A stretch of DNA of 56,664 bases, filler included, from Perkinsus olseni (Eukaryota): the NCBI GenBank assembly GCA_013115125.1. It is 2 parts of 2 records of this genome, joined end to end, with 100 filler letters (N's around TTAATTAATTAA, not from the genome) between each part and the next. Parts side by side here need not be neighbours in the genome. Positions count along the whole stretch, not along the records: positions 1 to 28,283 come from JABANN010000451.1; 1 more part is not named here. One strand, 5' to 3'. The stretch's first letter is position 1. Each line of letters begins with the position of its first letter. The translations under genes were made by a program, and so were the position numbers. The notes under the pieces were generated by a model. It was not told the DNA's origin. It saw only the letters and a program-made list of their open reading frames with translations, and searched no databases. Of this stretch, positions 8,601-27,376 are shown one piece after another.

Positions 8601-11600
8601 TGATATTCTTGAAACGGTCAAGCACCTAAGATTCTCCAAATCGATCGATCGATCGATTGGCGCCCCCTACCTCCGTTATCGATTTAGTGGGTTTTGCCAG
8701 CATTGGTTTTACTGGTATCCCGGGAGTAACACTGCATGCCTGAGATAATAACGTACATTATGTCACAATCTTCGACGAGGTGGAAAGAGTCAATCTTTGC
8801 AACCCTCCTGTGTCCAAACGAACGGTAGTAAAACTTATCCTCATCAAAGCTGGTCGGAGACAAGGATGCCACCACAGATGATGTACTTGGCAATTTAGGT
8901 CGGATAAGAAGATAATGTGAAGATCGAAGGATTTTAACCTCGCAAGTGAAGAGATATTTTTACATGAAAACAGGAGTGTAGCAAAACGCCGCATCGGACG
9001 ACGGTATCCTCCAGAAAGAACTTCGCTCCGCCTTTTTTGTTTTCTTCGTCCATCCGCCCCTCTACCCACCTTAGAGAGCTCCGCTGCATCTGCACCCGAC
9101 AGGAGGCAGTCAACAAGCTTATCATAACTTGGCACTTCACAGAACGCCTAAGACGTACAACGAAATCGATAATTTCGTGGCGCGTGACGCTGACGGGTGG
9201 TTGGGTTCACCTGTTTGGTCGCAGCCTCGAGCTCGATCATTTTTAATGCTATCTTATCAGCACTGGGCGCTGGCTTCTCTGACATGTACTGAATCTTGCA
9301 AGCATCAACCTTGGATACTTACCTTTGCGTATATCGGGAATGCATTCCTTCTCTTTACCCTTGGCCGGCTCGGTGAGAACGAATGCGTACGCCAAGGCTT
9401 GAAGAATAGTAGCTGATAGTATCCCAACTCGAAGACGGCCCTGAACGACCACAACGTATCTTACCAGTTTCGACCTAAGATACCCACCTGCAACGTCCTC
9501 ACAATGTACTTCGCCTCCTCCCCCTTGGCTGCCACCAAACACTTCGTTATGATATCTTTTCTCAATTTCTGTGAATCCTACCATCCCATACACAAAAAAT
9601 CTTCGCGGTGCGCGATGACGAAAGATACCTTTCCCCTGGCCTGGCTCATGACGAGTAGTTCCTTATATAATTTACTCAACGTCAGGGGAGGAGGGGCGAA
9701 CAGCATCGGCTGATTCACCCTCGATAGCAACGCAGCCTCGCCAAGGTCCTGATCATCATTTCGTGGCGCGCGAAAAAAAGAAAACAGCAACACCCTCGTG
9801 CGGGATCGAGACCCTGTCTGTAACGATGACTAAACTAGACCGCTACCATGCCTAGACCGCAAGCTTGAATTCTTCCAAAGCCATGCTTGAAATCTCCCCC
9901 TCTTCCTCAAGGTAACCAGCACGAGAAGTCTCGTACTATCGAGGAGTCACTCTTAAAAAGACAAAACTTCTCTAGGAGACTATTCGCTTTTTACTCACAG
10001 TTAGCGAGACAATGTCACAACTGGCTCAAACCAGTAATAACGAAACTACAGCGATACTACCGATACCAAAACCCCTTCCTGGGAGGTCGTAATAATCATC
10101 CTGCATGGACTCATTCCTAGGGCTCAATCCTTTCCCACTACCATAGCGCCCGATGTCGCCCGAACTCACCGCAGCATTGCCGTTACTGATATCAGCCGTG
10201 ATGTGTTTCTCTGATCGACCATACACCTGTGCCATCGCCTTTAGGATTACGTGATCACCAACGCCAACCTGAGTGATGATACTGGTATTATTATTCTGAC
10301 ACCTCTAGCTATTACTTCAACATTCTCATAATCCGGTCTGAGTTTATTAATGAGGAGGTAGACCGCGTGGATGAGTTCTGAAGGGTTGTGGTAGATGATG
10401 GTACGGAAAAGGTTAGCAAGAATAACCTGAAGAAGATCCCTTCGTAGTGGACAGAATAAAAATATCTTAGGTTGAAGCGCGCATCCTGCAGATTATCGAA
10501 GATTCAACAGGCCGTGCACACCCAGGCAGTCAGTCCCCATCTCAGAAATGAAATCGTGTACGACCTCTAAATTCACGAAGACGGCGGAGCGAAGCTTTTT
10601 CACACTTGAAAGAGATATCAAAAGGGGCTTTGCCTGCTAGGTGCAGCCGGCCGATGGAAAGACACCTCCGAGCCGATTGAATTTCGTGGCGCGCGACGCT
10701 CGCTCACCAGAACCTTCTTCTTCGACCCTTGCCCAGAGTTCTTCAAGTCCTCTATTTTCTGCAAGGCCAAAGCGAGTAGGGCGTAGGGGAGGTTCTTGCT
10801 TGGTGTGAGCTGAGAAAAAAAGCGCCCTCGCCGGGATTCGAACCTGCGACCTCTCAACTCACCTTAATCTGACTGAACTTGGAGGGATCGAAAGCCGGTG
10901 AGGTGATGTCACTGATTGCTGTTGGGCTCTTTGCTAAGAAAAAAATAGAGCCTCGCGAGATTTCATTTTTTCGGCAATAATAAACTTTTCTGTTTCTTCC
11001 TCACTTTTCGCTGGTATATCGCGGTTTCCAGGATACTTCGCGTTACCATGTCATTGCAAATCTTCTCAAGAATTACAAAAATATTCCTCAACTTCAAGTT
11101 ACTCTGGGGATTCAAGAGTTGAGCTCAAGTTCGAGTCGACATTAACGTTCTGGAGCGCCAGGCACGTTTGCCAGTGTTTGCCCCGATTCGTAACACCATC
11201 GTTAAGCGTCATCACTACAATCAGCATAGTCAGTGCAAGCGGGAAACTCTCTCAACATTCCTCACCTGCAGCCCCAGAAACCTTCCAGATCGACGAGGGG
11301 CCTGAGAAAGAGTATCAGAGTAAGCTAGCCTCCACAAGCTCACCTGTTCCCTTGGCGATTTGGGCTAACTTCTCTGCATCACTCTTGCCCGGCTGCTTCA
11401 AGGCTTCAGCGAGAGGGATTGCTCTGATGATTACAGAGAAGGATGGTTCGAACCCCCGGCGTGTTCGACAATCCGCGAAAAAAAATTTTCTCCAAAAATA
11501 CGATAACAATCCATAGACGATGAAGGGTTGGAAAATTAACGGAGTGAAGGGAAATAATTATGCATAATTGACACATTGACAGGGGAAATTTTTTTTCGGA

Positions 11601-11968
11601 TTCGGAAAATTGAGAAATCCATTCCACCCTCCTCCGTTACTCGTCATCATCATCCTCATAGTCGTCATCCACTTCCTCATTATCCGAATTTTTCTCTTCA
11701 ACAGGCTGAAATGAAATCGCTCCGGCCAAGCAGGAAAGTTAAACCTTACTTCATCGACTGGTGGCTGCTTATCATCCACTTGGTCATCTTGCATATCTTG
11801 CTTTTCCTCGACCTTCTCGATTTTCCTCTTCTTCTCCACAGGTTCCTCTTCTTTGCCCTTATTGGGCGAATTGGCCGCTCGCTTCGCTCCGCTCATCATC
11901 ATCGAAAATGCATTGACGGCCGAGGACATGTTCTCAGTCGACGAGGATGACGACGACGATGACGACAT
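5677..11968 (-). CDS. LIG1: DNA ligase I (ATP-dependent), multi-exon
   Basis: Basic/acidic N-terminal tail with NLS-like KKRK. Adenylation motif [12 protein letters not shown] is split by an intron. Also [52 protein letters not shown] and [13 protein letters not shown]. Confidence 0.96.
10815..10851 (-). promoter_or_regulatory. orphan Pol III B-box / tRNA-3'-end-like element within a LIG1 intron
   Basis: GGTCGCAGGTTCGAATCCCGGCGAGGGCGC followed by T7. It has an exact GGTTCGAATCC B-box but no A-box or 5' tRNA half. Confidence 0.6.
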
Positions 11969-26400: not shown

Positions 26401-27376
26401 ACGGATTTCGGCATGCAGGGCGACGGGCGGAGGAGGGGTCGCGGATCGAGTCCTAGCGCAGCTACTCACGGAGCTCGATGGAGTCGGAGGACAGTCGGGC
26501 GCAGGTCGGTGGATGAGTTGTGGGAAATGTGGTATGGATTTCATGTACAGGTGTTGTGCTCATTGCTGCGACTAATCGTCCCTGGGCGATGGACCCCGCC
26601 CTTCTGAGACCGGGAAGAATCGATCGTCTTGTTCATGTCCCTCTGCCGGACGATGATGCTAGACGGGAGATCTGGAAAGGGGCTCTGGGGAAGGTAGGTG
26701 CATGGCGTCGAGCAGATACAGTGGACTAACAGTTTACGCAGCTGTTGATTGTTATTGGTTATGTCGCGCTTCTGTTCAATCTCCTCCGCGCTGGACTATT
26801 CTTGGCTCGCAGTAGCATCTTTGTGATCATCACTCGAGGGGGATTGTAATCCTGAGTATTCAGCGCAAGACAGGCTTGCTCAGTCTCCATCTATTTATAA
26901 CTTTTCTAAACTAACGAGGATTGGATAGGTTTCTGCAGGGGAGCAGCTCCATAGGGGCGACGGTCTCCGCAGGGAATTTCGTATTTTCATGGCGTGCCGC
27001 CATTCACCTTCACACTTGCCTCGCTCTAACGCTCATCATTGTAGGTGCCCCATGCCACTGTGAGTGATGGTGATGATGACATTGAGCACTTCGTCTCGGC
27101 GACCAAAGGCTACAGCGGAGCGGAGATCGTCGCAGTGGTTCGAGAAGGCTGCATGGCCGCAGTACGACGGGAGATAGATCATCATGGGTAAGCCTCAACA
27201 GCGGAGCGAAGCGATTTTTGTATTTCTATTTTGTACTCAGGTCCGGTGAGATGACGTTGACTCGTAGCCTGATAGATGAGGGTTTGTCTAGAGTGCAACC
27301 TCGTATCACAGAGGAGCTGGCCCAGGCGTATGTCGAGTATGCTGAAAAGCAGTCTAGCGGAGCGGGGCGAGGCTGA
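23475..27376 (+). CDS. AFG2: AFG2/SPATA5 (Drg1)-like double AAA+ ATPase, multi-exon
   Basis: D1 has [38 protein letters not shown] and GFVGADL. D2 has [19 protein letters not shown] (AFG2/SPATA5-type Walker A), [25 protein letters not shown] and GYSGAEI. The start codon is uncertain. Confidence 0.88.

What the first reader, a model, noticed from the sequence alone, without database searches (positions are those of the whole stretch)
9171..26403. A 19-bp word, AATTTCGTGGCGCGYGACG, recurs inside introns of unrelated genes in both orientations
Seen: exact AATTTCGTGGCGCGTGACG at 9171-9189 (LIG1 intron), 25419-25437 and 26385-26403 (AFG2 introns). A one-mismatch copy lies at 10680-10698 and a partial copy at 9758-9773 (both LIG1 introns), with a decayed copy at 12562-12580 upstream of LIG1. 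The flanks are unrelated. The word is antisense in LIG1 and sense in AFG2, so it is not a branch-point or other splice signal. In the ~41-nt AFG2 intron it fills about half the intron. Known: the TTTSSCGC/GGCGCG core resembles E2F/DP sites, and the 9758 copy reads TTTCGCGCGCCACGAAA on the minus strand. Inference: a protein-bound DNA element kept in mini-introns because intergenic space is tiny, or the core of a tiny intron-generating mobile element.
Basis: partly seen in the sequence, partly recalled or inferred. Interest (0 to 1): 0.8.

Follow-up and report, generated by a model that had tools for sequence, protein, structure and literature searches.

The report
Short repeated DNA words in Perkinsus introns
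A 19-letter DNA word really does recur inside small, correctly spliced introns of two unrelated genes of the clam parasite Perkinsus olseni, and it is one of several such short repeated words (one is a copied piece of ribosomal RNA), so it looks like a tiny copied-and-pasted repeat rather than a splicing signal.

Summary
AATTTCGTGGCGCGYGACG occurs 4 times exactly, with a 16-nt partial copy and decayed copies; 0.03 are expected by chance. The five good copies lie in introns of DNA ligase 1 (minus strand, 3 copies, antisense) and an AFG2/SPATA5 ATPase (plus strand, 2 copies, sense). The window is Perkinsus olseni. RNA contigs from three runs show that one word-bearing intron is spliced, and homologue alignments support the others. 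The word is neither a splice signal nor a structured RNA. Only the partial copy forms a canonical E2F site.

Three new points:
- It is one of at least four 16-20-nt word families in the window. All have sharp edges and unrelated flanks and occur in either orientation, in short and long introns, a 5' flank and a 3' UTR.
- Family B is an exact piece of eukaryotic LSU rRNA, and another intron holds a tRNA 3'-half plus T-run.
- A DNA run shows further copies of the word elsewhere in the genome, some in tight tandem.

My best reading (0.4) is a young family of very short interspersed repeats copied into non-coding DNA. A protein-binding site (0.3) and an intron-creating element (0.15) remain open. 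I found no published description.

The parts
9171..9189 (+). Word A, exact (T variant). Lies in LIG1 intron 9148-9210 (63 nt), antisense to the gene.
9757..9775 (+). Word A, partial copy (16 nt identical to the 10681-10696 copy). Lies 7 nt from the 3' splice site of LIG1 intron 9749-10169 (421 nt), antisense. The only copy whose minus strand makes an E2F consensus.
10680..10698 (+). Word A, exact (C variant). Starts 9 nt after the 5' splice site of LIG1 intron 10427-10707 (281 nt), antisense. The same intron also holds a D copy and a C-like copy.
25419..25437 (+). Word A, exact (T variant). Lies in AFG2/SPATA5 intron 25402-25456 (55 nt), sense. Splicing is seen in RNA contigs of 3 runs.
26385..26403 (+). 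Word A, exact (T variant). Lies in AFG2/SPATA5 intron 26375-26418 (44 nt), sense, filling 19 of 44 nt.
12562..12581 (+). Decayed copy of word A, about 600 nt upstream of the LIG1 start codon (non-intronic, 5' flank).
9599..9619 (+). Degenerate A-like stretch in LIG1 intron 9578-9628 (51 nt), antisense. Weak (11.8 bits).
45162..45180 (-). Word A with 3 mismatches (19 bits). Probably in an intron or 5' region of a minus-strand cysteine-synthase-like gene; that gene model is not confirmed.
18220..18237 (+). Word B (identical to eukaryotic LSU rRNA). Lies in the RNA-confirmed 47-nt intron 18211-18257 of a minus-strand gene, antisense. Other copies at 44869 (+) and 10293 (-, in LIG1 intron 10269-10315, sense).
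27201..27216 (-). Word C core. Lies in AFG2 intron 27188-27240 (53 nt), antisense. Other copies at 12478 (+), 44694 (+, in the 53-nt intron 44669-44721), 10584 (-), 11877 (+) and 19350 (+).
25223..25239 (+). Word D, 2 mismatches. Lies in AFG2 intron 25207-25295, sense. There are 8 copies at <=2 mismatches in the window, including 9467 (+) in a LIG1 intron, 10462 (-), 37069 (+, in the 54-nt intron 37039-37092) and 14842 (+, just past a stop codon, inside a contiguous RNA contig). A ninth copy at 9302 (+), in LIG1 intron 9279-9322, has 3 mismatches.
10810..10862 (-). LIG1 intron (53 nt) whose core is a tRNA 3'-half-like sequence followed by a T run. A similar piece lies at about 15940-15975 (+).

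Best explanation
The word is a young family of a class of very short (16-20 bp) interspersed DNA repeats in the nuclear genome of Perkinsus olseni. Units of this size are copied into non-coding DNA in either orientation. Because the genes here are packed with tiny introns (LIG1: 25 introns in 806 codons), many copies sit in introns, where they form the free middle part between the splice signals. They act, if at all, at the DNA level and are not splice signals. Shown: the copies, their intron location, splicing, orientation independence, sharp edges, sister families, the rRNA identity of family B, and further copies elsewhere in the genome. Inferred: that the units spread by a copy-and-insert process, for example capture of short DNA- or RNA-derived fragments at breaks followed by re-copying; that family A is recent; and that no function is needed to explain it.
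For: (1) Copies have sharp edges and unrelated flanks. (2) Scores are bimodal: 5 near-perfect copies and almost nothing in between. That fits a recent burst. Family D shows graded, scattered substitutions: 8 copies at <=2 mismatches against 0.01 expected, and among the 9 copies at <=3 mismatches listed the differences fall on 9 of 17 positions. That is what an older, decaying repeat would show. (3) There is subfamily structure. In A, the T and C variants exist and the same two extra bases are shared by 9169 and 26383. In D, a GCA variant shares three extra upstream bases. This points to descent by copying. (4) Sister family B is an exact 18-mer of eukaryotic LSU rRNA. In the genome-contig scan, 39 of 45 hits continue with the conserved LSU sequence, 5 of 5 loci tested are Rfam LSU_rRNA_eukarya, and 28S primers printed in PMC9757062 and PMC3009748 contain its 13-mer. 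Another LIG1 intron holds a tRNA 3'-half plus T run. Such origins make sense for captured fragments, not for transcription-factor sites. (5) Words occur in both orientations and in every kind of non-coding DNA: short and long introns, a 5' flank, a 3' UTR. (6) The DNA run X1 shows other genomic copies. Six to eight contigs break exactly at word edges (before 9170, before 9758, behind 26404, around 18220-18237, behind 12494). Depth is 180-258 in word-bearing bins against about 80 baseline. Some contigs carry two copies directly adjacent or 8-9 nt apart, and an RNA-run contig carries two copies 22 nt apart. (7) In an unbiased set, 12 of 46 introns (LIG1 25, AFG2 12, RNA-joint 9) carry a member of five word families.
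Against: No terminal inverted repeats, target-site duplications or longer parent element were found. No mechanism is known that mobilises 19-bp units with constant ends. Random filler capture should give variable ends, yet the copies share the same ends within 1-2 nt. The window shows no general excess of short repeats beyond these few families (13-mer repeats are about as many as my own estimate of chance). So the process, if real, is selective. Perfect conservation with only one variable position (Y) is equally what purifying selection on a binding site would give. The source of word A is unknown: it does not match 15 eukaryotic rDNA loci, but P. olseni's own rDNA, snRNA, SL RNA and mitochondrial DNA could not be examined. 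Genome-wide numbers rest on one run of Logan contigs, with most rows not shown.
Confidence: 0.4

Rival explanations
1. The word is a recognition site for a sequence-specific DNA-binding protein with a long footprint, for example a multi-domain or dimeric factor. It is kept intact by selection and placed in introns because the compact genes offer little other non-coding DNA. The other word families would be sites for other factors.
For: The edges are sharp and the 4 exact copies are identical, with a single tolerated Y position. By eye, the word contains two adjacent CGTGRCG heptads and a 10-of-14 imperfect dyad. Copies cluster by gene (3 in LIG1, 2 in AFG2) and form tight tandem arrays elsewhere. 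Orientation is independent of the host gene.
Against: Sister family B is an rRNA fragment and another intron core is a tRNA half. Family D decays at 9 of 17 positions, as neutral sequence would. A 19-bp site cannot arise in place by point mutation, so copying is needed anyway. The only named candidate, E2F/DP, fails: 4 of 5 copies lack TTTSSCGC, and the consensus is not enriched (7 found, 6.4 expected). LIG1 and a ribosome-maturation ATPase have no evident shared regulation.
Confidence: 0.3
2. The word is the conserved core of a tiny intron-generating element (an introner-like insertion): the mini-introns that carry it were born by its insertion.
For: Word-bearing short introns are not longer than others. 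Eleven with a word average 50.9 nt; 17 without average 47.6 nt (2 of the 11 were chosen because they carry a word). Taking the word out of the 44-nt intron leaves 25 nt. That is shorter than any of the 48 introns compiled in the window (minimum 42 nt), which suggests that word and intron arose together. Intron density is very high: 25 introns in 2.4 kb of LIG1 coding sequence. Introner families with repeats are described in the related Amoebophrya (PMC7789003, passages read).
Against: Only 19 nt are shared. The parts holding the splice sites are unrelated among copies, unlike described introners. Copies also lie in 281- and 421-nt introns, a 5' flank and a 3' UTR. No direct or inverted repeats were seen at intron ends. 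Gain or loss of these introns could not be tested because no DNA of sister species was available.
Confidence: 0.15
3. The word works at the RNA level: as a splicing enhancer, a small-RNA precursor (mirtron-like), or a target of a small RNA.
For: The word is small-RNA sized. RNA contigs of two studies carry it next to unrelated sequence (loose ends behind 9191 and before 9758). Word B overlaps LSU rRNA pieces that two papers list as small RNAs or miRNA primers (PMC6448024, PMC7766432; single passages).
Against: Three copies are antisense and two are sense to the host transcript. Fold energies of 6 intron RNAs are ordinary, with z from -1.13 to +1.38. There is no Rfam match at E<=1 in 9100-10750. 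No small-RNA data were available.
Confidence: 0.07
4. Chance or artefact: compositional coincidence, an assembly error, or adapter contamination.
For: None beyond the small sample. The 56 exact hits in metagenome contigs are single hits in GC-rich bacterial coding sequence, which shows that the 19-mer can occur by chance in very large databases.
Against: Expected 0.03 copies against 6 observed. The stretch is held by Logan contigs of DNA runs from two studies (share 1.00) and by other runs from 2015-2025. RNA contigs splice the intron out.
Confidence: 0.01

Closest known systems
Introner elements (Micromonas, Aureococcus, dinoflagellates; Amoebophrya introners as described in PMC7789003, passages read; the other papers are recalled, not read here)
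   Same: Repeated sequence found inside many introns of unrelated genes in an intron-rich protist of the alveolate lineage. Suspected DNA-level spread.
   Different: Described introners share most of the intron, including its ends, and show direct and/or inverted repeats. Here only a 16-20-nt core is shared, the ends are unrelated, copies also lie outside introns, and both orientations are spliced.
E2F/DP binding sites
   Same: GC-rich core with a T run. LIG1 is a classical E2F target in other eukaryotes (from recall).
   Different: The 4 exact copies lack the consensus. The consensus is not enriched in the window. Exact 19-bp conservation far exceeds an 8-bp site.
Dispersed fragments of rRNA, tRNA or organelle DNA in nuclear genomes (rRNA pseudogene fragments; organelle-DNA insertions such as those reported in Toxoplasma; recalled, not read here)
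   Same: Short pieces of abundant genes or RNAs inserted in introns and intergenic DNA in either orientation, without target duplications. Word B is such a piece of LSU rRNA, and one intron holds a tRNA half.
   Different: Those insertions have variable ends and lengths. Here each family has constant ends and several identical copies, and the source of word A is unknown.
Bacterial REP/BIME elements (recalled)
   Same: Very short repeats dispersed in non-coding DNA, in both orientations, sometimes in tight arrays.
   Different: REPs are hairpin-forming palindromes moved by a dedicated transposase. Word A shows no fold signal, and this organism is a eukaryote.
Dada DNA transposons of Perkinsus marinus (PMC3706591, passages read)
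   Same: Mobile DNA known from the genus, associated with tRNA genes.
   Different: These elements are 4.7-11 kb long and insert into tRNA genes with 6-7-bp duplications. Nothing links them to the 19-mer.

Membership tests
E2F/DP site | Matches the consensus TTTSSCGC | tested here: not met
   only the partial copy at 9757 makes TTTCGCGC (9768-9775, minus strand). The exact copies at 9171, 10680, 25419 and 26385 do not appear among the 7 matches.
E2F/DP site | Enrichment of the consensus near target genes | tested here: not met
   7 matches in the window against 6.37 expected; 50 of 100 shuffles reach 7.
Introner (intron-generating transposable element) | Similarity over most of the intron, including its ends, among introns of unrelated genes | tested here: not met
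   similarity is limited to 19-21 nt and the flanks inside the introns are unrelated.
Introner (intron-generating transposable element) | Terminal inverted repeats and/or target-site duplications at the intron boundaries | tested here: not met
   no inverted partner of the word and no repeats at the boundaries beyond the AG|G splice consensus (by eye).
Introner (intron-generating transposable element) | Presence/absence of the intron among strains or sister species | not testable with these tools
   No genome is held for this window, and no DNA of other Perkinsus species was reachable. Four runs laid at 95% likeness showed no joint in DNA across these introns among the rows shown.
MITE | Terminal inverted repeats flanked by target-site duplications | tested here: not met
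   the five good copies are on one strand, there is no nearby inverted copy, and the flanks share no duplication.
Splice signal (branch point or intronic enhancer) | Fixed orientation relative to the transcript | tested here: not met
   word A is antisense in 3 LIG1 introns and sense in 2 AFG2 introns. Words B, C and D also occur both ways.
Structured RNA / mirtron / known RNA family | Stable fold beyond shuffles, or a match to a covariance model | tested here: not met
   z from -1.13 to +1.38 for 6 introns or intron parts; no Rfam hit apart from two tRNA-Gly genes elsewhere in the window.
rRNA-derived fragment (for word A itself) | Identity to an rRNA segment | tested here: inconclusive
   word A has no match of >=14 nt in 15 eukaryotic rDNA loci, whereas word B matches all 15. 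P. olseni's own rDNA, including spacers, was not available.
rRNA-derived fragment (word B) | Identity to an rRNA segment | tested here: met
   exact 18-mer; 39 of 45 hits continue with the conserved LSU sequence; 5 of 5 tested loci are Rfam LSU_rRNA_eukarya.

The most novel reading that the evidence does not exclude
Perkinsus writes a small vocabulary of small-RNA-sized (16-20 nt) words, some taken from rRNA and tRNA genes, into its non-coding DNA by an oligonucleotide- or RNA-templated insertion process with defined unit ends. This process supplies the core of new mini-introns, which would make it a previously undescribed route of intron gain and of short-repeat spread in eukaryotes.
Probability: 0.12. 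Interest if true: 0.85.

Novelty: new variant of a known kind. Interest (0 to 1): 0.55.

Why it matters
How intron-rich protist genomes acquire their introns, and what fills ultra-short introns, are open questions. Perkinsus sits at the base of the dinoflagellates, where repeat-driven intron gain has been reported, yet my two searches found no paper describing such repeats in Perkinsus. The families here have constant 16-20-nt units, one is an exact rRNA fragment, and they make up the middle of correctly spliced 44-63-nt introns in either orientation. That would point to a new kind of very short mobile or templated insertion, or to an unusually long and rigid set of DNA recognition sites placed in introns. 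Either would be directly testable with the public Perkinsus genomes. If the census shows only a few dozen neutral copies, the finding is a modest curiosity.

Tried and rejected
- Whole genome: none is held for this window, so genome-wide counts could not be made.
- Metagenome scan for the 19-mer: 56 loci, each with a single hit in GC-rich (0.44-0.72) contigs. Most fall into sets with shared flanks that look like bacterial coding genes. I judged them chance matches that say nothing about Perkinsus.
- Viral-contig scan for word B: one chance hit, not rRNA.
- Ab initio gene finder written here: the first version found almost nothing and the second chained everything into giant genes. Its models are not used, except for two intron candidates that I re-checked by reading frame.
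- First protein search with the 1092-aa ORF: no homologue.
- A chromosome-strand bias of the words (18 of 22 on +) vanished once I allowed for the arbitrary orientation of each family's consensus, so I do not claim it.
- Rfam at a permissive threshold on the word B intron did not report LSU rRNA, which shows that this test is blind to 18-nt pieces.
- Earlier findings of this scan: nothing on this genome or motif.
- From memory I compared the words with U6, U2, 5.8S and 18S sequences and with a tRNA 3' end or primer-binding site. I saw only partial, unconvincing resemblances, tested none of them with tools, and claim none.
- Literature: searches (Perkinsus plus intron, motif, introner, genome or repeat; sub-words of A-D as text) found no description of the word. 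Supplements were not opened and could hold motif or repeat tables.
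Full report
**1. What the window is**

The 317-aa exon at 23469-24422 is 100% identical to a Perkinsus olseni protein named 'Spermatoproteinsis associated protein 5' (P0001, 749 aa). It is 60% and 68% identical to the P. chesapeaki and P. marinus proteins. A LIG1 exon finds the P. olseni DNA ligase P0121 (806 aa). The window is therefore nuclear DNA of P. 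olseni, a perkinsozoan alveolate that parasitises molluscs. No whole genome is held for it. It has two short N runs at 28284-28383.

**2. The observation**

- The pattern AATTTCGTGGCGCGYGACG, allowing up to 3 mismatches, gives 6 matches against 0.03 expected. None of 100 shuffles reaches 6.
- Four matches are exact (9171, 10680, 25419, 26385). Two have three mismatches: 9757 (+) and 45162 (-).
- A decayed copy lies at 12562.
- A weight-matrix scan is bimodal: five copies at 25-31 bits, one at 19 bits, and the rest at background below 12 bits. There were 25 hits above 8 bits, against a mean of 15.5 and a maximum of 25 in 20 shuffles.
- The flanks are unrelated. The longest shared stretch is 21 nt (9169/26383).

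**3. Gene models and splicing**

P0001 maps exactly onto 13 exons (23475-27376, + strand, 12 introns). P0121 maps exactly onto 26 exons (5680-11968, - strand, 25 introns).

- Word A lies in AFG2 introns 25402-25456 (55 nt) and 26375-26418 (44 nt), in sense.
- It lies in LIG1 introns 9148-9210 (63 nt), 9749-10169 (421 nt) and 10427-10707 (281 nt), in antisense.
- Logan contigs of runs X7 (RNA by guess), X8 (kind unknown) and X19 (RNA on record) join 25399 to 25455 with GT..AG ends. The DNA run X1 does not.
- Joints across the LIG1 introns were not among the 15 rows shown; 62 further rows were not shown.
- As independent support, I checked the spliced proteins against homologues from dinoflagellates, apicomplexans, fungi and animals. 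They align without gaps at 6 of the 7 LIG1 junctions and 2 of the 4 AFG2 junctions. The other three are LIG1 aa 370 and AFG2 aa 581 and 705; aa 581 is the junction of the 44-nt word-A intron. These sit beside length-variable stretches in which the three Perkinsus proteins agree with one another.
- Loose ends that read as the end of the spliced leader precede 23452 and 14453. They mark trans-splice acceptors (the leader sequence is as described in PMC3101222, passages read).

**4. What it is not**

- Not a splice signal: three copies are antisense and two are sense.
- Not a structured RNA. Six intron RNAs fold no better than shuffles, with z from -1.13 to +1.38. The word as single-stranded DNA shows nothing either. 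Rfam reports nothing at E<=1 in 9100-10750.
- Not a canonical E2F site. TTTSSCGC occurs 7 times against 6.4 expected, and only the partial copy at 9757 forms one.
- Not an artefact. The stretch is held by runs of several studies, and the intron is spliced out in RNA contigs.

**5. It is one of several word families**

A self-comparison of the window and pattern searches found further families.

| Family | Word | Copies in the window | Expected by chance |
|---|---|---|---|
| B | AGCTAGAGGTGTCAGAAA | 3 at <=2 mismatches | 0.01 |
| C | AATCGCTTCGCTCCGC | 6 at <=2 mismatches | 0.03 |
| D | GCTTCAACCTAAGATAC | 8 at <=2 mismatches | 0.01 |

There is also a 42-nt pair at 21360 and 23390. In all of these families only the core is shared.

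The words sit in either orientation:
- in mini-introns: B in 18211-18257, which is RNA-confirmed, and in 10269-10315; C in 27188-27240 and 44669-44721; D in 9441-9487, 9279-9322 and 37039-37092;
- in long introns and in the LIG1 5' flank;
- for one D copy, just after a stop codon inside a contiguous RNA contig.

In the unbiased set of 46 introns (LIG1 25, AFG2 12, other RNA-joint introns 9), 12 carry a word. Repeats of 13 nt are about as many as I estimate from chance. The phenomenon is therefore a few special words, not a general patchwork of copied snippets.

**6. Word B is ribosomal RNA**

Of these, 39 continue with one and the same conserved sequence.
- Five of five loci tested are eukaryotic LSU rRNA by Rfam, and two hold whole rDNA units. 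These are eukaryotic rDNA contigs sitting in prokaryote assemblies.
- Two papers print 28S primers that contain the 13-mer core (PMC9757062, PMC3009748; single passages).
- Words A, C and D have no match of 14 nt or more in 15 such rDNA loci, whereas B matches all 15.
- A further LIG1 intron (10810-10862) has as its core a tRNA 3'-half-like sequence followed by a T run. A similar piece lies near 15940-15975.

**7. Copies elsewhere in the genome**

In the DNA run X1, 171 of 179 laid contigs fit only partly.
- Depth is 180-258 in the bins that hold words, against about 80 elsewhere.
- Six to eight contigs break exactly at word edges: before 9170, before 9758, behind 26404, behind 12494, before 18220 and behind 18237. 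Their loose-end consensus agreement is 0.44-0.49, which means the flanks are unrelated.
- Some contigs carry two copies of word A directly adjacent or 8-9 nt apart. A contig of X7 carries two copies 22 nt apart.
- Most rows of that output were not shown, and the aligner's minimum match length is unknown to me. I therefore claim only 'at least some twenty further contigs', not a copy number.

**8. Weighing the explanations**

For a copy-and-insert repeat:
- families of different apparent age (A intact, D decayed at 9 of 17 positions);
- subfamilies that share extra flank bases;
- the rRNA and tRNA origin of sister words;
- indifference to orientation and to the kind of non-coding DNA.

Against it:
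- constant unit ends;
- no inverted repeats or target duplications;
- no known mechanism for 19-bp units.

For a protein-binding site:
- rigid conservation with one tolerated position;
- an internal repeated heptad;
- clustering by gene, and tandem arrays.

Against it:
- the rRNA and tRNA sisters;
- the neutral-looking decay of D;
- the failure of the only named candidate, E2F.

For intron seeding: short introns with a word (11, mean 50.9 nt) are barely longer than those without (17, mean 47.6 nt). A 44-nt intron minus the word would be 25 nt, below the 42-nt minimum of the 48 introns compiled. Against it: the splice-site-bearing parts are unrelated, and words also lie outside mini-introns.

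I put 0.40 on a young, very short interspersed repeat with no function required. I put 0.30 on a protein-bound DNA word, 0.15 on an intron-creating core, about 0.07 on an RNA-level role, and the remainder on something not yet considered.

**9. Literature**

Searches for Perkinsus with intron/motif, introner, genome assembly and repeats, and for sub-words of the four families as text, found no description of these words.
- PMC7789003 (passages) describes introner elements with inverted and direct repeats in Amoebophrya.
- PMC3101222 (passages) reports that most P. marinus introns are under 100 bp.
- PMC3706591 (passages) describes large Dada transposons in P. marinus tRNA genes.
- The work on introners in Micromonas, Aureococcus and dinoflagellates, and on organelle-DNA insertions in Toxoplasma, is recalled, not read here.

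Noticed in passing
window 18220-18237, 44869-44886 (+), 10293-10310 (-): An 18-nt word identical to a universally conserved stretch of eukaryotic LSU rRNA sits in three introns of three genes, in both orientations. At least 8 further contigs in a DNA run break at its edges.
   Followed up: yes
window 10810-10862 (-) and about 15940-15975 (+): tRNA 3'-half-like sequences (T arm plus acceptor strand) followed by a T run. One forms the core of a 53-nt LIG1 intron; the other lies upstream of a highly expressed plus-strand gene.
   Followed up: partly
window 23452 and 14453: RNA contigs carry the end of the Perkinsus spliced leader immediately before these positions, which marks them as trans-splice acceptor sites of AFG2/SPATA5 and of the gene at 14.4-15.1 kb.
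   Followed up: partly
window 21360-21401 and 23390-23431 (+): A 42-nt repeat, 93% identical. The second copy ends 21 nt upstream of the AFG2 trans-splice acceptor.
   Followed up: no
window 5680-11968 (-): DNA ligase 1 has 25 introns in 806 codons, about 10 per kb of coding sequence. Fifteen of them are 42-63 nt long, with 44 nt the commonest length.
   Followed up: partly
window 19328-19488: A 161-nt stretch is covered by a DNA contig at about 3.7 times the single-copy depth (294 against about 80), so it is a low-copy repeat. It contains a C-like word at 19350.
   Followed up: no
window 13174-13291; 28384-28543; 34812-34935: Tandem repeats with units of about 49, 43 and 48-50 nt. The second abuts the two N gaps at 28284-28383.
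   Followed up: no
window 32356-35634 (-): An uninterrupted 1092-aa open frame with no Pfam domain and no homologue in the protein search. This is unusual among such intron-dense neighbours.
   Followed up: partly
window 48202-48272 and 48365-48435 (-): Two nearly identical tRNA-Gly(CCC) genes, 163 nt apart.
   Followed up: no
window 44600-44800 (-): A cysteine-synthase/CBS-like gene, recognised from its PLP-enzyme N-terminal motif read across a 53-nt intron. Its first introns carry words C, B and an A-like copy.
   Followed up: partly
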